Source: a virus | Taxonomy: Duplodnaviria > Caudoviricetes | IMG/VR virus record: IMGVR_UViG_3300028410_000746 | Reading direction: 5' to 3' (one strand) | Length of the DNA: 64,000 bases | In this document: piece after piece, positions 5,110 through 60,871 of the stretch | How the letters are laid out: every line of letters starts with the position of its first letter | Position numbering within the stretch: the stretch's first letter is position 1 | The notes under the pieces: generated by a model | The model's database searches: none | What the model saw: only the letters and a program-made list of their open reading frames with translations | Told to the model about the DNA's origin: nothing | Translations under genes and position numbers: made by a program

Positions 5110-5112
5110 CAG

Positions 5113-5187
5113 GGCGACTGACGGGACTTGAACCCGCGACTTCCGGTGTCACAGACTGGCGCTCTAACCAACTGAGCTACAGCCGCC
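5113..5187 (-). tRNA. tRNA-His(GTG)
   Basis: Cloverleaf GCGGCTG/CAGTCGC, loop CT-GTG-AC, G-1 and C73; one A-C mismatch in anticodon stem; no encoded CCA. Confidence 0.92.
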
Positions 5188-8190: not shown

Positions 8191-8982
8191 ATGAGCACAC
8201 GTGAAGGTCTCCGAGCCAAGCTCTCCACACTCCCCCTGAAGCTCAAGCCCTACGCAGAGGTTGACCTCGAACGGGACTGCAAGCTCATGACGGGCTCCGG
8301 CTGGATGTTCGAGATGATGTCTCGCATGGAGAACGCGATGTGGGGGAGGTGGGGCTACTGGCTCAACGCATGGGCGACCATGCAGCCTCCGACCGAGGCC
8401 ATCCCTCAGATCGAATTCGAGAACGCGCCCAACCCCTTCGTGCTCAAGATGCTCGACCACACCCTTGAGTGCTGCACCCAGGGACGCATCCACCGCTACC
8501 GCGCCATGGAGTGGCTGGTGGACTGGATCAGGTGGTCACTGGGAGGGCTCAAGGACAAGCCCGAGAACCCGGTCCCGGAGATCCCGAGCGACGTGATCGC
8601 CTATCAGGTGTTCCAGCTCGACCCCATGGTCCTCTACCCCTACGACTACTTCGGGCACTGGTACGCGGAAGCCGGGCACGGGAAGAATGGAGCTGCGTTT
8701 TACCCTACCCCAATGGGCCTCACCAACCTCATGGAGCGTATCCTCTACGGAAATGACCCCCTCCCCACATCCTCCTCCGCATGTGACCCCGCCGTGGGCA
8801 CAGGAAGGACCCTCCTGGCGGCCAGCAACAGCTCCTTACGCCTCTACGGTCAGGACATCGACGCGCGCGTCCTCGCCTGTCTGGAGGTCAATTTCGCGCT
8901 CTACGCCCCGTGGGGCTATCGACCTCTGCCAGACGCCGTGTGGACCGCTCACTCCTCCTCGAAAATGACCTCCTCTCCATAG
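8191..8982 (+). CDS. N6-adenine methyltransferase-like (HsdM-type SAM-binding) protein lacking motif IV
   Basis: AAFYPTP, ACDPAVGTGRTLL, LYGQDID; no NPPF/DPPY; ends TAG. Confidence 0.7.
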   Translation: MSTREGLRAKLSTLPLKLKPYAEVDLERDCKLMTGSGWMFEMMSRMENAMWGRWGYWLNAWATMQPPTEAIPQIEFENAPNPFVLKMLDHTLECCTQGRIHRYRAMEWLVDWIRWSLGGLKDKPENPVPEIPSDVIAYQVFQLDPMVLYPYDYFGHWYAEAGHGKNGAAFYPTPMGLTNLMERILYGNDPLPTSSSACDPAVGTGRTLLAASNSSLRLYGQDIDARVLACLEVNFALYAPWGYRPLPDAVWTAHSSSKMTSSP

Positions 8983-9167
8983 AGCCGCACATTGGACACC
9001 GAGAGGCTCATGGAACCACGTGAGGGGTAGAGCGTTACCGGAGGACCCTCCAACGACGCGATGAGGGGGAGGTTGTCCGGGAACGGTACCTCCGGCGTCT
9101 CCAGCACACCCACCTCACGAGCGGCGAGCAGTCTCAAACCCTCCAACCTCTTCTGATCGTCGCTCAT
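8949..9167 (-). CDS. Hypothetical protein
   Basis: ATG ORF in minus-strand cluster. Confidence 0.55.
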   Translation of the reverse strand: MSDDQKRLEGLRLLAAREVGVLETPEVPFPDNLPLIASLEGPPVTLYPSRGSMSLSVSNVRLYGEEVIFEEE

Positions 9168-10789: not shown

Positions 10790-10863
10790 TGCGCCGAGTG
10801 GGGCTCGAACCCACAACACGGGGATTTAGAATCCCCTGCTCTAACCCGTTGAGCTATCGGCGC
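10790..10863 (-). tRNA. Amber suppressor-type tRNA (anticodon CTA) on a tRNA-Phe-like scaffold
   Basis: GCGCCGA/TCGGCGC, GCTC/GAGC D-stem, GGGGA-TTCTAAA-TCCCC, GTGGG-TTCGAGC-CCCAC, A73; all stems perfect. Confidence 0.92.
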
Positions 10864-12278: not shown

Positions 12279-12279
12279 G

Positions 12280-12350
12280 CTCTGGGACCGGGACTTGAAC
12301 CCGGAAAGATTGGTTAACAGCCAATTATGATACCATTTCATCATCCCAGA
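12280..12350 (-). tRNA. tRNA-Asn(GTT)
   Basis: TCTGGGA/TCCCAGA, ATTGG-CTGTTAA-CCAAT, G73. Confidence 0.9.
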
Positions 12351-12377
12351 AGACGATCACGTTACCGCGACCGACAG

Positions 12378-12462
12378 GGTGTCGGGAAGGAGTCGAACCT
12401 TCATACCTCCGAAGAGGAACTGGGCCACACGGAGGCGAGCCTGCCAATGCTCAACCGGACGC
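12378..12462 (-). ncRNA. tRNA-like gene D (loop GT-GTG-GC, C73); cis stems broken
   Basis: D-arm, UUCG variable arm and T-arm intact; own acceptor 3/7, own anticodon stem 2/5; cross-pairs with 12468-12551. Confidence 0.75.
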
Positions 12463-12467
12463 CCAAA

Positions 12468-12551
12468 TGCGCCGGGTAGGAGTCGAACCTACAGGTCTCC
12501 GAAGAGAACCCTCGCTACAACCAGCCGAGCTTACCAATGCTCAACCGACAC
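12468..12551 (-). ncRNA. tRNA-like gene U (loop TT-GTA-GC, A73); cis anticodon stem broken
   Basis: D-, variable and T-arms intact; own acceptor needs two G-U pairs; own anticodon stem 2/5; 5' half complements the 3' half of 12378-12462. Confidence 0.75.
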
Positions 12552-12555
12552 GCAA

Positions 12556-12636
12556 TGCGTTGGGCAGGACTCGAACCTGCACGCCCGAAGGACCGGGGCT
12601 ACAACCCGGCGAGCCAGCCAATTGCTCAACCAACGC
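12556..12636 (-). tRNA. tRNA-Tyr(GTA)
   Basis: GCGTTGG/CCAACGC, CCGGG-TTGTAGC-CCCGG, long variable arm, A73; G37. Confidence 0.85.
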
Positions 12637-12665
12637 AGATCACGAGCCTCACACGCTCGCGACAA

Positions 12666-12745
12666 TGACCTCTCACGGAATCGAACCGTGACCCGCAGGG
12701 GGAGACACCCCCACGTAGGTGAGGAAAAGTCTGCGACAAGAAGTC
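12666..12745 (-). ncRNA. tRNA-like RNA with acceptor stem and T-arm but no canonical D or anticodon arm
   Basis: AATGACTTCT/AGAGGTCATT 10-bp closing stem; CACGG-TTCGATT-CCGTG; GGGGG-TGTCT-CCCCC. Confidence 0.55.
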
Positions 12746-12792
12746 ATTGCACGTGTGTAATCGAGAGACGTAGTGCTCTCATTCCCAAAAGA

Positions 12793-13362
12793 TTACTCCT
12801 CTCCGTCGTCCATATACACATCATCAGGCCCGCGAGCATTCAACAGGAGCAACTGAGCACCCAGGACGTCCAGCGCGCCGTAGAGCGACGACGCGGCGCC
12901 GTGAGCGTCCTCCAGACATGCTTGGTAGCACGGCTCACCATCTCGCATCTCGACAGACAACAAAACGTCCTCTCTCGCCGTACGTAGTACCGAAGGGGGG
13001 AGCACCGTCGAGGAGGGGCCCTTGAAGCCCATGAGCAGGACCCCAGCGCTCTTTGCGTGGCGCTTGAAGCCGTTGTAGCGCTGAATCAGTTCCCGATGCG
13101 AGGATTCGCGTTCAGGGTACTCGACCGCGTGGGTACGAGTAGGGCCGACGTAGCTGAAGCGAGGGCCTTCATAGCCGTACTCCGGCTTGTCCACGTGCTC
13201 CAGGAACATCTCAACAGGACGTGCCCACAACTCCCCAGAACGATCAGGCCGATGGTACACGGCTACAGGAGAGTCGCCTTCCGAATGCCTAGCGACCCCT
13301 ACCAGAAAGTAGAGGTCACCCTTGAAGTGGCGGTAGTAACCGGGCACCGGTTCAGTAGTCAT
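12793..13362 (-). CDS. DUF1653 domain protein
   Basis: GYYRHFKGDLY...ARHSE...VY...LWARPVEMFLE. Confidence 0.85.
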   Translation of the reverse strand: MTTEPVPGYYRHFKGDLYFLVGVARHSEGDSPVAVYHRPDRSGELWARPVEMFLEHVDKPEYGYEGPRFSYVGPTRTHAVEYPERESSHRELIQRYNGFKRHAKSAGVLLMGFKGPSSTVLPPSVLRTAREDVLLSVEMRDGEPCYQACLEDAHGAASSLYGALDVLGAQLLLLNARGPDDVYMDDGEE

Positions 13363-25670: not shown

Positions 25671-25742
25671 AGCCTCACGAGGGACTTGAACCCTCCTCTC
25701 GGCATTACAAAAGCCGCGCGGCGCCGTCTCCGCTTGGGTGGC
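25671..25742 (-). tRNA. tRNA-Thr(TGT), degenerate
   Basis: CGGC-T-TTTGTAA-T-GCCG, T-arm GAGGG/CCCTC; acceptor 5/7; weak D-arm; U73. Confidence 0.6.
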
Positions 25743-26322: not shown

Positions 26323-26633
26323 TGCGCAAACCATGGGTGTGCCGTGACTCCCCGACCGCCGCAGTCGTCACATGGAGGATGAGAATAGAGAACCCCCTCG
26401 CCGCCACACGCGCCACACTCAAGGTCGTAGAGGACCCCTTGGTAGTCACACCTCGCGCAGCCGTCCGGATCTTCCCCGTCTCCTTCCCCTCCGCAGGCCG
26501 GACACGGAATCTCTTCCAGGAAGCCATCCCCCCGACAGACCTCGCACTCGGTCTCCAGGAGGAGATCCTTTCGGACCCCCTCCATCATACAGACCTCGCA
26601 CTCGACGAGCATTGTGGGAGGCATGGGACTCAT
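26319..26633 (-). CDS. DnaJ-type CxxCxGxG repeat protein
   Basis: Six CxxC repeats, most followed by xGxG; no J-domain; coupled to lon. Confidence 0.8.
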   Translation of the reverse strand: MSPMPPTMLVECEVCMMEGVRKDLLLETECEVCRGDGFLEEIPCPACGGEGDGEDPDGCARCDYQGVLYDLECGACGGEGVLYSHPPCDDCGGRGVTAHPWFAQ

Positions 26634-29600
26634 ACAGACGGCTCCTGGACGAAGGGCTCGGTCACCGGGAGAGCCTTGGTCCAGTCACGAAGAACGTCTC
26701 GGAACACCAGCGGCGGAATCTGCTCCACGCGGTCCACCGGGTAGAACGTCATTTCGCTGAGCACCAGGGCGTCCACGTCACGCAGGTCCTTGGTACACTG
26801 CGAGGGCATGATGACCTCACGGATGCCCGCGCGATGCGCGGCGATGACCTTCTCCTTGATGCCGCCGACCGGGAGCACCTGACCCGTGAGCGTAATCTCA
26901 CCGGTCATGGCCACCTCTCGGCGCAGCTTGAGCCCCGCGAAGCGAGAGAGCAAGGCGCTGAACATCGTGATGCCTGCGGAGGGACCATCCTTGGGGATGG
27001 CGCCAGCCGGCACGTGGATGTGAAGGTCGTGCGACTTGATCATGTTGGTGTCTACTCCATACAGATCGCCATGCGCACGCAGGTAGCTCAGGGCAGCCCG
27101 GACAGACTCCTTCATGACGTCTCCGAGCTGGCCCGTCAGCGTCACCTCACCCTTACCCCCTTTCATCGCCTGCACCTCAATGAAGAGGATGTCTCCACCT
27201 ACCGCCGTCCAGGCCAAGCCCGTTGCCACGCCCTCCTGATCCTCACGCTGCGACACCTCCGAGATGTACCGAACGGGACCCAGCGCCTTCTCGACCCGCC
27301 CCATGTCCAGGGGGAACACCGCACCGAGACGCTCAGCCTCCGGAAGCTTGACGACATCCACAGCGATAGAGCGGCACAGGTCTCCCAGCCTACGGTTCAG
27401 GCTACGGACGCCCGCCTCACGGGTGTACTTGTCCACCACGTGGTGGACCACCCCATCCGCGACCTCGATCTGGTCGGGCCCCAGACCGTGGGCGGCTACC
27501 TGCTTGGGGAAGAGATAGCGAGTCGCGATCTCATTCTTCTCGAACATCGTGTAGCTGGGGACCTCCAGGATCTCCATACGGTCACGCAGCGGAGCCGAGA
27601 TCGTATCCAACCGGTTGGCCGTGGCGATGAAGAGGACCTTGGACAGGTCAAGGTCTATCTCCAGGTAGTGGTCGTTGAACGTCGAGTTCTGAGCCGGATC
27701 AAGAACCTCCAGGAACGCGGCGGCGGGGTCGCCTCGGAAGTCCGAGCCCACCTTGTCGATCTCGTCCAGGAGGATGACCGGGTTCATCGTGCCGGCCTTC
27801 TGAAGCGCTCGAACGATGCGGCCCGGCATGGCGCCCACATAGGTACGACGGTGACCACGGATCTCGGACTCGTCGTGCATACCTCCAAGGGAGATGCGCG
27901 CGAACTTGCGGCCCATCGTCCGGGCAATGGACTTGGCGATGGACGTGTTATGCGTCACAATCACGTCATCAGTGATGTAAAGAGAATCAGGAGCAGAGAC
28001 CTTGATGCACTGAGTCTCCTTGACACCTACCGCTACGATATCAGAGATGAACCTCTTGGGAGCGTACTTACTCTTGGAGACCCACCGCTGAGCTTTGGCG
28101 TCACACCAGAAGGGACACTGACCCGCCGACATTGAGACCGTCACGTTGTACGCCAGACGACCCGAACGCCTCTCCCCATCAACCGTATATGACGGCTTTT
28201 TCATCGTCACCCGTGTCACCCCCCCAAGCGACCGGACCAACCACTGCACGTCATCACACAATCGCGTCGACGTCGTACAAAAAGAAACCCTACAACCCGT
28301 CGCGTCTACAGTACCGCCAGTGTCCATCAAGCCCTGCAAAAGAGCGAGCCTCTGCTCTACCGAGCCGTAAAGGTACACATAAGGTACATGCTTTTCGTAC
28401 GAGTAGAGCCCCGTAAGTTCCAGAGCATCCAGCTCCACCTGCAACGCGTCCCGTACAGACCCCTTTCGCCCTGCGGTCAAACGATAGTCACAGGTCTCCG
28501 ACGCTTGCTTGCGCATCCGAACCTCCCCCGGCAAGGCGGCAGCTACGCGTGCGCAAATATCACCCTCTGGGTTTGAAAAACCAACGGAAGCTCCCGTAAG
28601 GCCTCCATCTCCCAAGAGCGCCCCCAAGAGGTACGGGTCAAGGGGTACGGACTTTTCCGCAAACTCCAAGGGCTGGGTCAGAGGGATAGAATGGTTGCGG
28701 CGAGCGTCCGAGCCGTACCGAAGCGTCTCTCGGATTTGCTCCAGAGACTTCACCGACCCCTCACGGGAAGCCTTCCGATCGAGGTCGGTATGCGTGTACC
28801 ACAAGTGCTCGTCGCAACACTCTGTTGATGAGCCGTCTTGAAACTCCACACGATACACCGGCCGCGTGCCTTGAGGGAACGCGCCCTCCACGTGATGAAC
28901 GCCCCCGTCCGCACCCATGACCGCATCACCTACCGCAAGCGTACCCATCGCAACCCAACCCTTCGGGGTCAACACCCGCGCATCCAAAGGCTGCGCCTTG
29001 CCCACACCGGGAGGGCCCACGAAGCACAGGATCGGGCCGTTCATGTCCTGCTTGAGCGCCTGAACAGCCAGATGCTCGACCACCCTTCGCTTCACCTTCT
29101 CCAGGCCGTAGTGGTCCGCGTCGAGCACATCCTCCGCGCGGACGACATCCAGGTTGTCCTCGCTCTCGACGCCCCACGGCACATCGAGCATCTGCTGGAT
29201 GTAGTTGAGCGTCACCGAATACTCGGAGCTGGCCGGCTGCATCGCGTCGAGTCGACGATGCTGCTTCAGGACCGCAGCCTCCACCTCCTCAGGCATGTCT
29301 GCCTCCTGAATACGCTCAAGCAGCTCCTCCGTCTCGGAGATGTCCTCACCGAGCTGGTCCTTGATGACCTTGAGCTGCTGGCGAAGGATGTACTCACGCT
29401 GAATAGACTTGCTGCGCTCCTGGAGCGACTGGTTGATCTCACCCGCCAGCTCCTGGCGCGCGATACGCTCCCCCAGGATGCGCAGACACCGAGACGCGCG
29501 CTCCGTGATGTTCGGCTCCAGGTAGAGAGCCAACAGGTCCTCATCCTCGAAGCGGGGCGCGAGCATGTCTGTAAGGTCTGAGAGGGAGCCCACAGCACGC

Positions 29601-30079
29601 ACGCGCTCGAACTCCTGCTCGGGAGCGTCCGGATCGTCTCCCAGGACCTGAAGCGTCTTCTCCTGAAGCGCCTCGAACAGCGCTTCATTGTACTCCGCCT
29701 CCTTGTCGAACTCCGGTCCAATGACCTCGAAGTGACCCATCAACGGCGCGGAGGCATCCTCCGGAATCTCAAGATCCAGGAGCCTCAGCCTCACCTCCCC
29801 GGAAGAAATGACCGTATAGTCGTTCGCGTTCGGGTTCGGGATGATCTTGATGCAGGACACCAGGGTCGCGATCTCGTGGACCTCATCCATCGAGGACAGC
29901 GTGAGCACGTCCGGAGACTTCTGAAGCACGACCGCGATCTTGAAAGGCGCCGGCGAGTCTGCACCCTCAATGACCGCCAGGGAGCGTGCTCGACCGACCC
30001 GAACAGGGATCATCTGTAGCGGGAAAAGAGGGTTCTCGCGCATGGCGATCACGGGAAGGTACAGGGTGTCAGCGCTCAT
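26630..30079 (-). CDS. lon: ATP-dependent Lon protease (LonA) containing an intein
   Basis: LON N-domain, [25 protein letters not shown]|[28 protein letters not shown]. Confidence 0.97.
27947..28996 (-). mobile_element. Class-3 intein (350 aa) with LAGLIDADG-type homing endonuclease, in the Lon Walker A motif
   Basis: K|[11 protein letters not shown]...HLW...TQCIKV...VTHN|T; LLGALLGDG and [10 protein letters not shown]. Confidence 0.92.
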
Positions 30080-46154: not shown

Positions 46155-48305
46155 TTAATAGAGACAGGCGGCGGAGGGGTCCCGGCTGCACAGGTCCAGC
46201 ACGGTGGACACGGGCATGTAGACGTTGTTGAAGAAACGGAAGCCCGCGCCTACTTGAGACAGCGCTCCCAGACCCGTGACTACGGTGAAGCCCGTCTGCT
46301 CGACGAAGACCTCTCCGCTGACGCTGGTAAGAGAGTCGAAGCCTCCAAGCTCTCCCCGGATGCCGTAGCCTCCCACGATCCTTTGCAGGCGGAGGTGGAG
46401 TGAGCCGGTGATGGTCGTGAGGTTGTTCAGGCTGCTAAAGTCGTCCGTACCCATCCTGGACGCCAGGACCGCAGACCCGTTGATGCGCTCAAGGGCGTCG
46501 AAAGCGCATGTGCCGTTGTTGCACCACGTGAAGTCTGCAAGACCCAGCACCAAGCCGCCTACTACACGCACGCTCGACAGGGCGCTTGCGTCCGGAACGT
46601 TGGGCGGGAGGACCGTAGTGTTGAGAGAAGGGAAGAAGACCCCACCCTCCACGCGCTCCAGGTTCTCAAAGCCAGTCAGGGCTCGGATCGTCGTCTGAGC
46701 GTTCCGACCCGAGCCCCGGAAGTGTAGCGACCCGCCAATGTGCGTGAGGGGTAGCGCTGTGGGGTGGATGTAGTCCAAATCGAAGCGGGTCTGCTCGCAC
46801 GTTACCGGGTAGCCCTGGTAGTCGATGAACGTCTCCGTGAACGAGTTGCCCGTGCGAATATGGACGTCTCCGGAGACCGAGCAGTAGCTGGTAATGTCCA
46901 CCAGCGGAGCAAAGGAAGAGTGGCACGTGAAGTCCCCCTCTACCCAGACCGCCTCACCCGTTGGCGAAGACCAATCCGAGGAGTCCCTCACCGTGAGGAG
47001 GGTCACATCTCCCACGAACTGCTCACACAGGCGGGGTCGAGCGGCTACCTGCTGACACTGCGTCAAGCACACTGCCGGGCAGTCTTCCCAGTCCTCACAC
47101 TGAGGAGCGCTGGCGACGTTCGCTGCTCCTTCATCACACTGCTCCGAACCCTGTACGATTCCATCACCACAGGTCCCTCCTTGCTCGGACACGAAGCCCG
47201 AGCAGTCCTGCGCACACACCGTGCAGCTCCCGTTGTACGGAGCCGCACATCCCGAAGCATTCGCAACCCCGTTATCACACTGCTCCGAGCCCTCCAGGAT
47301 GCCATCTCCACACACTCCAAAGGGTCGACACGTCTGTCCATCTCCCACATACCCGCCATCGCAGGTGCAGGTGAAGCTGCCAAAGCTGTTCAGACACGTA
47401 GCGTTTGCCCCGCAAGGGTCGTTCAAGCACTCGTCCACGTCCAGGCAAACGTATCGCCCTTGCGCCTGAGTCGCGTCTCGGTTCTCACACACCGTACCCG
47501 ACTGGCAGGTATCCTCTCCAAAGACACACTCATCGCGATCGTAGCACACGAAGCGTACACCAAGAGGGCCCGTCGCGTCCTTGTTGGCACACAGCGCGCC
47601 CTCGACGCAGGCTCCCGGCTGGAGGCACTCATTCACGTCATCGCACGCGTACCCTCCATTCTCCTCCCGGCACGACTGACCAGGGCCGCATGGGTTACCC
47701 GAACACTCCGGCACGTCACGACACGTCTGACCGTCTCCCGTATATCCAGGGTCACACGCACACTCGAAGCTGCCCACCGTGTTGGTACACGTCGCGTTCG
47801 CCCCACAAGGATCGTCCACACACTCATCCGCGTCCACACAGCCGCCCCCCAGCTCCAGGTAGCCATCATCACACGTACACTGAGTACAACCGGGCCCCGC
47901 CTCACACTGCTCGGGACCGCCGAGGACACCATCGCCACACACGTTCCCCCGCACGGTCTCAAGCTGGCACGAGAGGCCGCAAAACTCACAGCTTGCGCCG
48001 TACGCCGGATCACACAGCTCCCCAACCCTCATGTCACACTCTTCACCCGCTTCCAGGACTCCATTGCCGCATACCGGATCAGACTCCACGTCGGGCTCCA
48101 CGTCGGGCTCTACATCCAACTCCGCGTCGGGGTCCTCCCCCAGGTCAGGCTCGTCTGCATCAGGCTCGTCTCCCAGATCAGGGCCTGCGTCCGCAGAAAC
48201 CTCCGAACCGTCGCGAAGATCCGGAGGGGTGTCCGAACGGATACAACCCGTGAAGGTCATGAAAGCCACGAGGAGCGCGGCGAGGTGAATTCCGAAGCGG
48301 TACAT
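46155..48305 (-). CDS. Lipoprotein with myxobacterial-type Cys-rich repeats, Ca-binding EGF modules and a receptor-L-like domain
   Basis: Lipobox FMTFTGC; four CG(N/D)G...E.C repeats; DECVDDPCGANATCTNTVGSFECAC; LTGFENLERVEG repeats. Confidence 0.88.
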   Translation of the reverse strand: MYRFGIHLAALLVAFMTFTGCIRSDTPPDLRDGSEVSADAGPDLGDEPDADEPDLGEDPDAELDVEPDVEPDVESDPVCGNGVLEAGEECDMRVGELCDPAYGASCEFCGLSCQLETVRGNVCGDGVLGGPEQCEAGPGCTQCTCDDGYLELGGGCVDADECVDDPCGANATCTNTVGSFECACDPGYTGDGQTCRDVPECSGNPCGPGQSCREENGGYACDDVNECLQPGACVEGALCANKDATGPLGVRFVCYDRDECVFGEDTCQSGTVCENRDATQAQGRYVCLDVDECLNDPCGANATCLNSFGSFTCTCDGGYVGDGQTCRPFGVCGDGILEGSEQCDNGVANASGCAAPYNGSCTVCAQDCSGFVSEQGGTCGDGIVQGSEQCDEGAANVASAPQCEDWEDCPAVCLTQCQQVAARPRLCEQFVGDVTLLTVRDSSDWSSPTGEAVWVEGDFTCHSSFAPLVDITSYCSVSGDVHIRTGNSFTETFIDYQGYPVTCEQTRFDLDYIHPTALPLTHIGGSLHFRGSGRNAQTTIRALTGFENLERVEGGVFFPSLNTTVLPPNVPDASALSSVRVVGGLVLGLADFTWCNNGTCAFDALERINGSAVLASRMGTDDFSSLNNLTTITGSLHLRLQRIVGGYGIRGELGGFDSLTSVSGEVFVEQTGFTVVTGLGALSQVGAGFRFFNNVYMPVSTVLDLCSRDPSAACLY

Positions 48306-48365
48306 ATGCTCTCCGTGGGGTTCAGGGTCCTTGACAAGAGAGGGCTCGCGCCTTCTCTCACCTCC

Positions 48366-48394
48366 CGTGTACCACAAGGAGAACACTCCGTAGA
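48366..48394 (-). promoter_or_regulatory. Sigma70-type promoter
   Basis: TCTACG-N17(TGTGG)-TACACG. Confidence 0.55.
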
Positions 48395-48540
48395 AAAAAT
48401 CCCCCATTTTACGACCCCACAACCGCCAATGCAAGATCTTGAGCGCGCGTATGACGACCAATAAGACCTCTTGACAGGTAGACACAACAAGGCCCCTCAC
48501 CACGAATGCGATGAGAGGCCTTGAAGGAAGAAAACCGTGC

Positions 48541-50175
<1,635 letters not shown>

Positions 50176-59605: not shown

Positions 59606-60871
59606 TTAGGAATCTTGCCTCGCCTGCACGAGCAGTCCCTCGGCCACAGCCGTCATGGGGTTGCTCGCGCGACGAACCTCGCTGATCTCCAGCGGGAAAC
59701 GCTTGCGGTGCTTCTTGTCAAAGACAGACTCGAAGACCTCGATGAAGCCGTCGGGGAGGCTCGTACCTCCAGAGACGACGATCGGGATGGCCGTCAGCTC
59801 CGTGTCGGACTGCTCGGCCTTGAACTGCTTGGCGATGTGCTTGAGCGCGTAGTTAATCAGGGACTTGTAGTACACGACCAAAGCCTCCTGCTCGCGGCCC
59901 ACAGGGGCAGCCAAGTTGATGCCCTTCTCCTTGATCGTACACATGCGCGAGGCCGTCGTGCCGAGAGCCTGCGCCGACTGTGCGTCAATCCAGTCGCCGC
60001 CGCGCGCGAGCGAGAACTCCATGATCGGAAGGGTCTGGTAGGACAGGGCGATGTTGACCATGCCCGAGCCGAAGCTGATGCCGATACCCGAGAAGGTCTC
60101 CTTGGCACACTCAGCGTAGATGATGGCCATCGCCTCGTTGCCCGAGATCGCCGTGTACCCCAGCTCCTCCAGGATGCGCTCGAAAGCCGCCTCGTGGTAA
60201 ACCACGTCCCTCTCCGGAGCATCCACCGGGGACGCCGGGATCGAGTAGTAGCACACCTCGTCCTCGACCTGCGGCTTGCCCAGTACGCCCTCGATCATGA
60301 TGGAGAGCACCTCCAACGCATCATGCTCCGACGCCGAGATGAGGCCTTGCGCCAGCGGACGGCGCGCCTCACGCTTGAAGAGGTTGGCGAGCTGAAGCGC
60401 GTCATCACCCAGGATCAGGATGTGGTCCTCGTACTCCACGAAGGTCGTGCCTCCGAGCTGGAGCTTGGCCTTGGCGTCCAGGTCCAGGTCCAGGAACGCA
60501 TCGCGCGTTCGGCTGGTGACCACGCCCTCTTCGGACTGCACCGCGCTCACGATGTTCATGGTCCCGATGTCCAGACCCTTGCCAAAGAAGATCTTGGCAG
60601 AGGTGGGCGCAGAGGTGGGCGGGATGAGCGTGGTCTTTCTGTCTTCGGTCATGTCTGTACTCCCAAGTTTCTCGGGGGCCGGAGTGTCATCACCCGGCTC
60701 CGCTGTATGGTAGACCTGAGGCTCGGTCAAAAGCTCAAGGTCCCACTCACCCATGCGACGTCGCACAGTTGAGGAGCTGCACCCTAGCACAGCTTGGATC
60801 TCTCGTACAGTCATTCCTTGTTTGACGAGACGCGTCAAGCGTTGTTTGGTGATGTCCAGCTTTTTAGCCAT
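59606..60871 (-). CDS. Actin-like ATPase (MreB/MamK-like fold) with N-terminal HTH
   Basis: GLDIGTMNIV, NEAMAIIY, ISFGSGMVNI, VSGGTS, PMTAVAEG; N-terminal TVREIQAVLGCSSSTVRRR. Confidence 0.85.
   Translation of the reverse strand: MAKKLDITKQRLTRLVKQGMTVREIQAVLGCSSSTVRRRMGEWDLELLTEPQVYHTAEPGDDTPAPEKLGSTDMTEDRKTTLIPPTSAPTSAKIFFGKGLDIGTMNIVSAVQSEEGVVTSRTRDAFLDLDLDAKAKLQLGGTTFVEYEDHILILGDDALQLANLFKREARRPLAQGLISASEHDALEVLSIMIEGVLGKPQVEDEVCYYSIPASPVDAPERDVVYHEAAFERILEELGYTAISGNEAMAIIYAECAKETFSGIGISFGSGMVNIALSYQTLPIMEFSLARGGDWIDAQSAQALGTTASRMCTIKEKGINLAAPVGREQEALVVYYKSLINYALKHIAKQFKAEQSDTELTAIPIVVSGGTSLPDGFIEVFESVFDKKHRKRFPLEISEVRRASNPMTAVAEGLLVQARQDS

What the first reader, a model, noticed from the sequence alone, without database searches (positions are those of the whole stretch)
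12378..12551. Nested tRNA pair: a tRNA with a circularly permuted tRNA in its anticodon loop
Seen: two tRNA-like genes lie 90 nt apart in tandem, each with intact D-, UUCG-variable and T-arms. U = GTGTCGG TT GAGC ATTGGTAA GCTC G GCTGG TTGTAGC GAGGG ... CCGGCGC A. D = (G)CGTCCGG TT GAGC ATTGGCAG GCTC G CCTCC GTGTGGC CCAGT ... CCGACAC C. In cis both anticodon stems fail (2/5), D's acceptor fails (3/7), and U's acceptor needs two G-U pairs. Across copies, U's 5' half pairs with D's 3' half: acceptor GTGTCGG/CCGACAC is 7/7 Watson-Crick, anticodon stem GCTGG/CCAGT is 5/5. The inner halves also pair: CCGG-CGC/GCG-(T)-CCGG closes an ATTTGG loop, and CCTC pairs with GAGG. Inference: selection has kept a nested fold of two tRNA bodies joined anticodon to anticodon. 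It could be cut in both loops and re-ligated, giving an outer tRNA with GUG plus C73 (His-like) and a circular or permuted GUA/A73 one. Alternatively it acts uncut as a decoy for anticodon nucleases. Its neighbours are also GUN-anticodon tRNAs (Asn, Tyr), the class cut by colicin E5-type nucleases. I know of no described bacterial or phage example of this arrangement.
Basis: partly seen in the sequence, partly recalled or inferred. Interest (0 to 1): 0.92.

Follow-up and report, generated by a model that had tools for sequence, protein, structure and literature searches.

The report
Half-swapped tRNA pair, huge phage
In the tRNA operon of a 373-kb lake-water phage, two neighbouring tyrosine-type tRNA genes have exchanged halves, so they can fold only together as one tRNA with a second, circularly permuted tRNA-shaped body in its anticodon loop; this layout is real and not described in the literature I could search, but it has no known relatives or expression data, so its function is inferred, not shown.

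Summary
On the minus strand, 12551-12378 holds two 84/85-nt class-II (Tyr-like) tRNA units. Their D, variable and T arms are intact, but the acceptor and anticodon stems pair only across units. The outer tRNA "X" has 7/7 Watson-Crick acceptor pairs and a 5/5 anticodon stem. The inner permuted body "Y" has 7 acceptor pairs plus a bulged U and 4-5 anticodon-stem pairs. The nested fold is about 24 kcal/mol better than the tandem fold. ARAGORN in intron mode calls the whole as tRNA-Tyr(GUA) with a 90-nt intron.

Selection could not be tested. Every other copy found, in three further assemblies, is 100% identical. No relative exists in any collection searched, and no RNA run is listed. There is no bulge-helix-bulge motif. 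The 127 kb of the genome that is held encodes no splicing endonuclease, RNA ligase, Ro60 or CCA-adding enzyme.

The same genome does keep an island of Y RNAs and YrlA-type permuted tRNA mimics about 20 kb away.

My best reading (0.4) is a non-decoding double tRNA mimic: a YrlA-like module carried on a full tRNA frame, trimmed into two chains that stay paired. The main rival (0.3) is a dead product of rearrangement.

Unchecked notes from this scan report a similar arrangement in another jumbo phage.

The parts
12378..12551 (-). Whole nested unit (174 nt): 5' half of X, 3' half of Y, cap loop, 5' half of Y, 3' half of X
   Evidence: ARAGORN -i: tRNA-Tyr(gta) with 90-nt intron; nested -63.4 vs tandem about -39 kcal/mol
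12468..12551 (-). Chain U (84 nt): X 5' half plus Y 3' half, ends with A73
   Evidence: Rfam tRNA 29.6 bits, just at the gathering score of 29
12378..12462 (-). Chain D (85 nt): Y 5' half plus X 3' half, ends with C73
   Evidence: below the Rfam tRNA threshold, best match tRNA-Sec 26.6 bits against a cut-off of 47
12545..12551 (-). X acceptor 5' strand GTGTCGG
   Evidence: pairs 7/7 Watson-Crick with 12379-12385
12379..12385 (-). X acceptor 3' strand CCGACAC; discriminator C at 12378
12521..12525 (-). X anticodon-stem 5' strand GCTGG
   Evidence: pairs 5/5 (one G-U) with 12419-12423 CCAGT
12419..12423 (-). X anticodon-stem 3' strand CCAGT
12514..12520 (-). First 'anticodon loop' strand TTGTAGC (GTA)
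   Evidence: in the nested fold it is one side of a 7x7 internal loop that can partly zip with 12424-12430
12424..12430 (-). Second 'anticodon loop' strand GTGTGGC (GTG, with an unusual G32)
12509..12513 (-). Y anticodon-stem 3' strand GAGGG
   Evidence: pairs with 12431-12435 CCTCC: 4/4 when shifted by one, or 4/5 in register with a C.A mismatch
12431..12435 (-). Y anticodon-stem 5' strand CCTCC
12469..12475 (-). Y acceptor 3' strand CCGGCGC; discriminator A at 12468
   Evidence: pairs with 12455-12462 (7 pairs plus a bulged T)
12455..12462 (-). Y acceptor 5' strand GCGTCCGG (8 nt)
12463..12468 (-). Cap loop ATTTGG closing Y's acceptor stem; predicted RNase P and 3'-trimming site
   Evidence: for the structure. 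Processing is inferred by analogy with M. smegmatis YrlA (PMC4201824).
12476..12492 (-). T arm of U (GTAGG-TTCGACT-CCTAC)
12386..12402 (-). T arm of D (GAAGG-TTCGACT-CCTTC)
12493..12508 (-). Long variable arm of U with C(UUCG)G tetraloop
12403..12418 (-). Long variable arm of D with C(UUCG)G tetraloop
12527..12542 (-). D arm of U (GAGC-ATTGGTAA-GCTC)
12437..12452 (-). D arm of D (GAGC-ATTGGCAG-GCTC)
12555..12637 (-). Ordinary class-II tRNA-Tyr(GTA), a paralogue 73-75% identical to U and D, 3-4 nt upstream of U
12279..12350 (-). Ordinary tRNA-Asn(GTT), 27 nt downstream of D
12665..12746 (-). tRNA-like RNA heading the cluster: 12-bp terminal helix plus T arm, no D or anticodon arm
   Evidence: MFE -37.4, z -3.2
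12371..12385 (-). Hairpin CCGACA-CCC-TGTCGG formed by X's 3' acceptor strand and a downstream copy of 6/7 of X's 5' strand
   Evidence: read; not analysed further

Best explanation
The 174-nt stretch is one tRNA-derived non-coding RNA gene, not two tRNA genes. It is co-transcribed with the tRNA-like RNA, tRNA-Tyr and tRNA-Asn around it.

The RNA folds into two tRNA-shaped bodies joined through their anticodon stems. The outer body X is a flawless class-II cloverleaf. The inner body Y is a circularly permuted tRNA-like module whose acceptor stem is capped by a hexaloop, which is the topology of the tRNA-like domain of YrlA-type Y RNAs. X acts as the frame. It supplies RNase P and 3'-end processing sites and stable ends, as the terminal stem does in a Y RNA.

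RNase P and 3' trimming, with CCA addition, probably also open Y's cap, as shown for M. smegmatis YrlA. That would leave two chains of about 85 nt (U and D) that stay paired as a two-headed heterodimer.

Neither anticodon lies in a free loop, so the RNA cannot decode. It most likely works as a tRNA mimic or decoy for proteins that recognise Tyr/His-type (GUN) tRNAs or tRNA bodies, such as anticodon nucleases, modification enzymes or RNA-repair and quality-control factors.

Shown: the nested fold and its energetic advantage, intact tRNA core elements, and the presence of related mimic RNAs in the same genome.

Inferred: transcription, processing, heterodimer persistence and the decoy function.
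For: (1) Cross-unit pairing is complete and the cis stems fail. The nested fold is -63.4 kcal/mol against about -39 for the tandem fold.

(2) RNase P and 3'-end sites fall at the same four positions in either fold. The products U and D are predicted to be 14.8 kcal/mol more stable as a heterodimer than apart, against 0 to -5 for control pairs.

(3) All universal tRNA core elements are intact in both units: U8, A14, G18G19, the T-loop TTCGA, G53-C61 and U33. All six local arms are perfect and differ between units by compensated changes.

(4) X has no structural defect. Y has three: a bulged U in the acceptor, a C.A mismatch in the anticodon stem, and G32. That fits a frame plus a mimic module better than two former decoding tRNAs.

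(5) The same phage keeps a gene-free RNA island about 20 kb away. It holds two Y RNAs with GGUCUGAUGUAG...CUUGACC stems, and two full-length matches to the Rfam YrlA model (33.2 and 27.1 bits, E 4e-5 and 3e-3). One of these is a permuted tRNA opened in the anticodon loop, like Y. It also holds an acceptor-plus-T-arm frame with a 64-nt foreign inner part. A further tRNA-like frame heads this very cluster.

(6) Published precedent: M. smegmatis YrlA has a 7-bp capped acceptor stem that RNase P cuts and that receives CCA in vivo (PMC4201824).

(7) There is no internal promoter or terminator in the cluster. No protein family matches the antisense ORF, and three gene callers placed no gene there.
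Against: - No homologue exists, so there is no evidence of conservation or post-rearrangement covariation.
- All copies are identical.
- No RNA data.
- The Rfam YrlA model does not match the inner module.
- The RNA lacks the Ro60-binding GGUC(U)G/UUGACC motif that the island RNAs carry.
- No Ro60/TROVE gene in the 127 kb held.
- A frame would not need a perfect D arm, variable arm and anticodon stem. X's perfection fits a recently working, or still spliced, tRNA equally well.
- The design is rare: my detector found no second convincing case in about 70 phage tRNA loci.
Confidence: 0.4

Rival explanations
1. A dead product of DNA rearrangement. A break or template switch in the anticodon-loop DNA of a Tyr-family tRNA gene was repaired using neighbouring paralogues. 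Alternatively, a tRNA-shaped element inserted there. Either way, 90 nt (3' half, spacer, 5' half) were placed into gene X. Both genes are now inactive and tolerated because ordinary tRNA-Tyr and tRNA-His genes exist. The cross-pairing is simply inherited from the parent genes.
For: - The phage has an intact tRNA-Tyr 3-4 nt upstream and a tRNA-His at 5112-5186, so X and Y are redundant.
- The tRNA set evolves by duplication: Tyr, U and D are three paralogues 73-75% identical.
- A copy of 6/7 of X's 5' acceptor strand lies just after D (12371-12376), which suggests past duplication and deletion in the array.
- Insertions of tRNA-shaped DNA into phage tRNA anticodon loops do occur. L032 has an 87-nt insert in tRNA-Pro that four related contigs lack.
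- Y's three defects could be decay.
- No conservation, expression or processing enzyme could be shown.
Against: - Both junctions fall exactly within the 7-nt loops rather than in the much longer identical stretches of the D and T arms (14 and 12 nt), where homologous exchange would be expected.
- All twelve trans pairs of X and every universal core nucleotide of both units are intact.
- Phage genomes tend to lose dead DNA.
- The genome demonstrably maintains other permuted tRNA-like RNAs.
Confidence: 0.3
2. A true split-and-swap precursor that matures into tRNAs. Both GU-containing loop strands are cut by an anticodon nuclease of the colicin E5/PrrC kind or another endonuclease. A ligase then reseals them crosswise. 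This releases a linear outer tRNA (GUG or GUA, C73) and a circular inner tRNA (GUA, A73) that RNase P and 3' trimming then open. It would be a bacterial counterpart of the maturation of algal permuted tRNA genes.
For: - ARAGORN places a 90-nt intron at the canonical position after the anticodon, and the reconstructed X is a perfect cloverleaf.
- The 3' half with G36 carries C73 (the His combination), and the 3' half with A36 carries A73 (the Tyr combination).
- Both loop strands keep U33-G34-U35.
- Jumbo phages commonly carry RtcB or Rnl ligases for tRNA repair (PMC7824862).
- The circular-intermediate pathway is established for permuted tRNA genes (PMC3978253).
Against: - No bulge-helix-bulge motif can be drawn.
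- No tRNA splicing endonuclease, RtcB, Rnl1, Rnl2 or CCA-adding enzyme in the 127 kb held.
- No protein-dependent tRNA splicing is known in bacteria.
- Y has a bulged acceptor, a mismatched anticodon stem and G32.
- X lacks the encoded G-1 that bacterial HisRS needs and has the wrong discriminator for TyrRS (my own knowledge of identity rules).
- Both products would duplicate existing phage tRNAs.
Confidence: 0.15
3. Two independent, unusual tRNAs that each work in cis despite weak stems.
For: U alone reaches the Rfam tRNA gathering score (29.6 against 29) and has a 7-pair acceptor stem with two G-U pairs.
Against: - Both cis anticodon stems have 2 of 5 pairs.
- D's cis acceptor has 3 of 7 pairs.
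- D is below every Rfam threshold.
- ARAGORN without introns calls neither unit.
- The cis fold is about 24 kcal/mol worse than the nested fold.
Confidence: 0.03

Closest known systems
YrlA-type bacterial and phage Y RNAs (Rfam RF02553; Chen et al. 2014, PMC4201824)
   Same: - The inner body has the YrlA module order: variable region, T arm, capped acceptor stem-loop, D arm, leaving through an anticodon-like stem.
- It has a 7-pair capped acceptor like M. smegmatis YrlA, which RNase P cuts and which receives CCA.
- It sits in a tRNA operon of a phage that also carries YrlA-like and Y RNAs.
   Different: - The outer part is a complete class-II tRNA instead of a Ro60-binding stem.
- No GGUC(U)G/UUGACC or GNCGAA motif.
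- No match of the Rfam model to the module.
- No rsr/TROVE gene found.
Circularly permuted tRNA genes of red and green algae and Thermofilum pendens (Soma 2014 review, PMC3978253)
   Same: The 3' half lies upstream of the 5' half and is joined through an acceptor loop. RNase P and 3' trimming are expected to open that loop.
   Different: - Those genes stand alone, carry a bulge-helix-bulge motif at the leader-trailer junction, and are circularised by the splicing endonuclease and ligase.
- Here the flanks are the two halves of another tRNA.
- There is no BHB.
- The host is bacterial: the tRNA-Tyr is the bacterial class-II type.
Split and intron-containing tRNA genes of Archaea and eukaryotes (canonical 37/38 intron)
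   Same: The interruption lies at or next to the canonical position after the anticodon. The exon halves pair perfectly.
   Different: - No BHB and no endonuclease found.
- The insert is itself tRNA-shaped and permuted.
Group I introns in bacterial and phage tRNA anticodon loops
   Same: They are the only established kind of tRNA intron in bacteria, and they sit in the anticodon loop.
   Different: - At 90 nt the insert is far too short.
- No Rfam group I match in the window.
Two-piece (circularly permuted) tmRNA of alpha-proteobacteria and cyanobacteria (cited in PMC3978253)
   Same: It is a bacterial precedent for a permuted tRNA-like gene whose transcript is cut in the acceptor cap and works as two paired chains.
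   Different: - No tag reading frame or tmRNA features; ARAGORN -m finds no tmRNA.
- Here both chains are tRNA-sized chimeras.
Engineered tRNA scaffolds for expressing RNAs in bacteria (own knowledge: Ponchon and Dardel 2007)
   Same: A foreign structured RNA replaces the anticodon loop of a tRNA, which provides processing and stability.
   Different: That is a laboratory design. A natural use of it is my inference.

Membership tests
Canonical bacterial tRNA gene (U and D each in cis) | 7-bp acceptor stem formed within the gene | tested here: not met
   U: 7 pairs only by using two G-U pairs. D: 3 of 7.
Canonical bacterial tRNA gene (U and D each in cis) | 5-bp anticodon stem within the gene and a score above the Rfam tRNA gathering cut-off | tested here: not met
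   Both cis anticodon stems pair 2/5. U scores 29.6 bits against a cut-off of 29, D is below threshold, and ARAGORN default calls neither.
BHB-type intron-containing or permuted tRNA genes (Archaea, eukaryotes) | Interruption at or near position 37/38 with exon halves forming a full cloverleaf | tested here: met
   ARAGORN -i: intron of 90 nt at position 37. The reconstructed X is a perfect class-II cloverleaf.
BHB-type intron-containing or permuted tRNA genes (Archaea, eukaryotes) | Bulge-helix-bulge motif at the splice sites | tested here: not met
   An exhaustive search of the junction strands found no 3-nt bulge, 4-bp helix, 3-nt bulge arrangement. The junction folds as a rod with small internal loops.
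BHB-type intron-containing or permuted tRNA genes (Archaea, eukaryotes) | tRNA splicing endonuclease (PF01974) and a ligase available | tested here: inconclusive
   None in the 127 kb held. About 230 kb of the phage and the unknown host could not be searched.
Group I intron in a tRNA anticodon loop | Group I ribozyme core (Rfam Intron_gpI), usually over 200 nt | tested here: not met
   No such match in the window at gathering or E<=10 thresholds. The insert is 90 nt.
YrlA (RF02553) | Permuted tRNA-like module: T arm, capped acceptor stem-loop, D arm | tested here: met
   Order and pairing read. It is the same topology as the YrlA-like RNA at L082 8812-8922.
YrlA (RF02553) | Match to the Rfam covariance model at or above 69 bits | tested here: not met
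   No match on the inner module. The only match is a 16.3-bit hit at the Tyr/U junction.
YrlA (RF02553) | Terminal stem with the Ro60-binding motif | tested here: not met
   No GGUC(U)G, UUGACC or GNCGAA in the 174 nt, whereas the island RNAs have them.
YrlA (RF02553) | Encoded next to an rsr (Ro60/TROVE) gene | tested here: inconclusive
   No TROVE in the 127 kb held, and none among the genes called in L080 and L082. The rest of the genome and the host were not searchable.
Two-piece tmRNA | tRNA-Ala-like domain plus tag reading frame | tested here: not met
   ARAGORN -m finds no tmRNA in the record.

The most novel reading that the evidence does not exclude
The nested pair is a defence-triggered reserve of tRNAs. 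It stays inert until a host anticodon nuclease aimed at GUN tRNAs cuts both loop strands at G34/U35. An RtcB-type ligase then reseals the four ends crosswise. This yields a linear class-II tRNA (GUG, C73) and a circular permuted tRNA (GUA, A73) that RNase P and 3' trimming open. It would be the first protein-dependent tRNA splicing and permuted-tRNA maturation pathway in the bacterial world, and it would turn the host's weapon into the maturation enzyme.
Probability: 0.08. Interest if true: 0.95.

Novelty: new variant of a known kind. Interest (0 to 1): 0.6.

Why it matters
If the RNA is made and stable, it extends the known tRNA mimics (tmRNA, YrlA, viral tRNA-like structures) to a two-headed form in which a complete tRNA carries a permuted tRNA-like module.

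It would also be a snapshot of how YrlA-type modules can arise from tandem tRNA genes.

It gives a concrete, cheap substrate for two questions. Can bacterial RNase P, RNase Z and the CCA-adding enzyme work on capped, nested tRNA bodies? Do huge phages use tRNA decoys against anticodon nucleases aimed at Tyr/His/Asn/Asp tRNAs?

If it is a dead rearrangement instead, it still documents that phage tRNA genes are hit in the anticodon loop by tRNA-shaped DNA. I saw this independently as a presence/absence insert in another phage lineage.

Tried and rejected
**Homologue searches, all empty**
- blastn against 50,697 phage records found only ordinary tRNA-Tyr and tRNA-Asn genes. Rhodococcus phage Peregrin has a plain tRNA-Tyr there.
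- Flanking proteins and a 492-aa phage protein found nothing in IMG/VR.
- A homology search with the DUF1653 neighbour returned one hit, a 138-aa protein 100% identical to the query.
- The D-arm pattern in IMG/VR gave one chance hit, L003.
- The T-arm/D-arm junction pattern in IMG/VR gave 71 loci, none related.
- The tandem-pair pattern gave two chance hits in JGI metagenome contigs and two in 185,579 prokaryote genomes.
- 'relatives' is not available for virus records.

**Apparent variant strains**
L078, L081, L083, L085 and L086 are 100% identical. Their differing gene lengths came from the gene callers.

**Expression**
One DNA run was listed and no RNA run. I did not use read laying, because contigs of the source sample cannot show RNA ends.

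**Enzymes**
TROVE, RtcB, Rnl2, tRNA_int_endo and PolyA_pol are absent from the 127 kb held. The Rnl1 search had no working positive control. The full ENA contig could not be searched as a handle.

**Other readings rejected**
- A generic detector for half-swapped tandem pairs found only this case plus one marginal hit, L069, in about 70 phage tRNA loci.
- Protein-coding reading of the antisense ORF 12379-12987: no Pfam or PHROG family.
- Plain MFE folding is not tRNA-like in the D-arm region, because the two near-identical D arms pair with each other. It still keeps both trans acceptor stems and both T arms.

**Literature**
Six searches found no description of a tRNA with a permuted tRNA in its anticodon loop.
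Full report
**1. What is in the sequence**

On the minus strand, the stretch 12746-12279 is a gene-free RNA cluster with no internal promoter or terminator. It lies directly after a DUF1653 gene. In order it holds:
- a tRNA-like RNA at 12746-12665, with a 12-bp terminal helix plus a T arm;
- an ordinary class-II tRNA-Tyr(GTA) at 12637-12555;
- unit U at 12551-12468;
- the spacer TTTGG;
- unit D at 12462-12378;
- after 27 nt, tRNA-Asn(GTT) at 12350-12279.

U and D each have a perfect D arm, a long variable arm with a C(UUCG)G tetraloop, and a perfect T arm. Both keep U8, A14, G18G19, U33 and the TTCGA T-loop. Tyr, U and D are three equally distant paralogues: 63-64 identical positions out of 85-86.

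**2.

Within each unit:
- U's acceptor needs two G-U pairs.
- D's acceptor has 3 of 7 pairs.
- Both anticodon stems have 2 of 5 pairs.

Across units:
- GTGTCGG (U) with CCGACAC (D) is 7/7 Watson-Crick.
- GCTGG with CCAGT is 5/5.
- D's GCG(T)CCGG pairs with U's CCGGCGC around the loop ATTTGG.
- CCTC pairs with GAGG.

The outer tRNA X, rebuilt from the window as U's 5' half plus D's 3' half, is a flawless class-II cloverleaf. ARAGORN reads it as Tyr(GTA) or His(GTG), depending on where in the loop the join is placed. The inner Y, D's 5' half plus U's 3' half, is tRNA-shaped but has an 8-nt 5' acceptor strand, a C.A mismatch in the anticodon stem and G32.

The explicit nested double cloverleaf scores -63.4 kcal/mol and the tandem one -38.6 to -39.9. 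The unconstrained MFE (-72.8) keeps both trans acceptor stems and both T arms. Without introns it calls neither unit. Rfam gives U 29.6 bits, just above the cut-off of 29, and puts D below every threshold.

X and Y differ on both sides at 2:71, 4:69, 27:43 and 31:39. Each of these pairs links one base in U with one in D, so chance is excluded.

An ENA assembly (373,477-b contig), a Logan assembly of SRR6185438 and a JGI contig from metagenome 3300039191 all give the identical sequence. It is therefore not a single-assembler artefact.

**3. What could not be tested**

I found no diverged relative. The searches covered:
- 50,697 phage records;
- IMG/VR, by proteins and by two DNA patterns;
- 5.8 billion protein clusters;
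- JGI metagenome contigs;
- 185,579 prokaryote genomes.

All further copies are 100% identical. Selection on the nested fold can therefore be neither shown nor refuted. No RNA run holds the stretch.

**4. Tests of the proposed mechanisms**

*Splicing of the archaeal or algal kind.* The two junction strands cannot form a bulge-helix-bulge motif. They zip instead into a rod with small internal loops. The 127 kb of the genome that is held has no splicing endonuclease, RtcB, Rnl2, CCA-adding enzyme or TROVE protein. The Rnl1 search lacked a positive control. About 230 kb of the phage and its unknown host remain unsearched.

The insert is too short for a group I intron, and Rfam finds none.

The pairing of GUG with C73 and of GUA with A73 is real. 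However, each pair of bases lies within one 3' half, so it does not separate the cis from the trans reading. G-1 is not encoded.

*End processing.* RNase P and 3'-end sites fall at the same four positions whether the RNA folds nested or tandem. Ordinary processing would thus give two chains, U and D, which cannot fold alone. They are predicted to be 14.8 kcal/mol more stable as a heterodimer, against 0 to -5 for control pairs from the same cluster.

**5. Context that changed my reading**

Notes from this scan pointed to YrlA-type RNAs, and I checked this myself. I walked along the full ENA contig and found a 2-kb gene-free island about 20 kb from the pair (L082 7231-9300). It holds:
- four tRNAs;
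- two RNAs with the Y-RNA stem GGUCUGAUGUAG...CUUGACC, which match the nematode stem-bulge RNA model;
- two full-length matches to the Rfam YrlA model, at 33.2 and 27.1 bits, below the cut-off of 69;
- a tRNA-like frame (7-bp acceptor plus T arm) with a 64-nt foreign interior.

One YrlA-like RNA (L082 8812-8922) is a permuted tRNA opened in the anticodon loop, with a capped 6-bp acceptor stem. This is the topology of my inner body Y, but its outer part is a Ro60-type stem.

Chen et al. (PMC4201824) showed that YrlA RNAs mimic tRNA. They also showed that the 7-bp capped acceptor of M. smegmatis YrlA is cut by RNase P and receives CCA in vivo, and they noted that dimeric tRNAs resemble the module.

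So this phage maintains a family of tRNA-derived mimic RNAs, and the pair fits that family in design. It fails the family's membership tests:
- no match to the model on the inner module;
- no Ro60-binding motif;
- no rsr gene in view.

**6. Verdict**

Most likely (0.4): a non-decoding, two-headed tRNA mimic. A YrlA-like permuted module sits on a complete tRNA frame and is probably trimmed into two paired chains. It would serve as a decoy or ligand for proteins that recognise GUN-type tRNAs.

Main rival (0.3): a dead product of rearrangement or insertion at the anticodon-loop DNA.
- *For the rival:* the tRNAs are redundant. A leftover copy of X's 5' strand lies just after D. In another phage lineage, an 87-nt tRNA-shaped insert sits in the anticodon loop of tRNA-Pro (L032) while four related contigs have the intact gene.
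- *Against the rival:* both junctions lie exactly within the 7-nt loops rather than in the longer identical stretches. X and all core nucleotides are flawless. The genome keeps other permuted mimics.

Maturation by nuclease and ligase into real tRNAs is possible but unsupported (0.15).

**7. Novelty**

The inner module is a known kind of RNA topology. A permuted tRNA-like body carried in the anticodon loop of a complete tRNA was not found in six literature searches. Unchecked notes from this scan report a comparable arrangement in another jumbo phage. I class it as a new variant of a known kind.

Noticed in passing
L082:7231-9300 (same phage genome, about window -7700 to -9750; ENA k141_181878): A gene-free RNA island. 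It holds four tRNAs, two Y RNAs with GGUCUGAUGUAG...CUUGACC stems (8308-8420, 8452-8540), two YrlA-like permuted tRNA mimics (8812-8922 at 33.2 bits; 8970-9067 at 27.1 bits) and a tRNA-like frame with a 64-nt interior (8660-8801). No Ro60 gene is in view.
   Followed up: partly
L032:4661-4823 (-), IMGVR_UViG_3300045988_118370: tRNA-Pro(UGG) is interrupted in the anticodon loop by an 87-nt tRNA-shaped, CCA-ending, non-permuted insert. The homologous tRNA-Pro genes in L072, L067, L057 and L071 are uninterrupted, so the insert is a presence/absence polymorphism, as expected of a mobile element.
   Followed up: partly
L032:3722-3920, L060:858-1056, L067:3757-3955, L057:6617-6815, L072:541-739, L071:2815-3013, L063:1228-1424: tRNA-Glu(UUC) genes carry a 122-123-nt structured insert right after the anticodon. 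It contains a T-arm-like hairpin. It is conserved in seven huge-phage contigs, and one of them (L063) is only 82% identical.
   Followed up: partly
window 12665-12746 (-): A tRNA-like RNA heads the cluster. It has a 12-bp terminal helix, a canonical T arm and a G5/C5 hairpin, with no D or anticodon arm (MFE -37.4, z -3.2).
   Followed up: partly
window 12371-12385 (-): A hairpin CCGACA-CCC-TGTCGG lies immediately after D. Its 3' arm repeats 6 of the 7 bases of X's 5' acceptor strand. It is either a remnant of a further array unit or a competitor for X's acceptor pairing.
   Followed up: no
window 10790-10863 (-): A well-formed tRNA with a CUA (amber) anticodon, 68 bits on the Rfam tRNA model. 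Notes from the scan say the genome still terminates genes at TAG.
   Followed up: no
window 26630-30079 (-): A phage-encoded Lon protease (1149 aa) with a LAGLIDADG-type domain at residues 575-627, between the substrate-binding and AAA+ domains. This suggests an intein.
   Followed up: no
window 25671-25742 (-): Rfam finds a further tRNA (38.4 bits) that default ARAGORN misses. At low threshold ARAGORN reads it as Thr(tgt), next to Thr(ggt) and Leu(caa).
   Followed up: no
window 59606-60871 (-) and 46155-48674 (-): A Volactin-family protein with an N-terminal HTH (E 5e-78), and an 839-aa protein with calcium-binding EGF domains. Both are unusual phage cargo.
   Followed up: no
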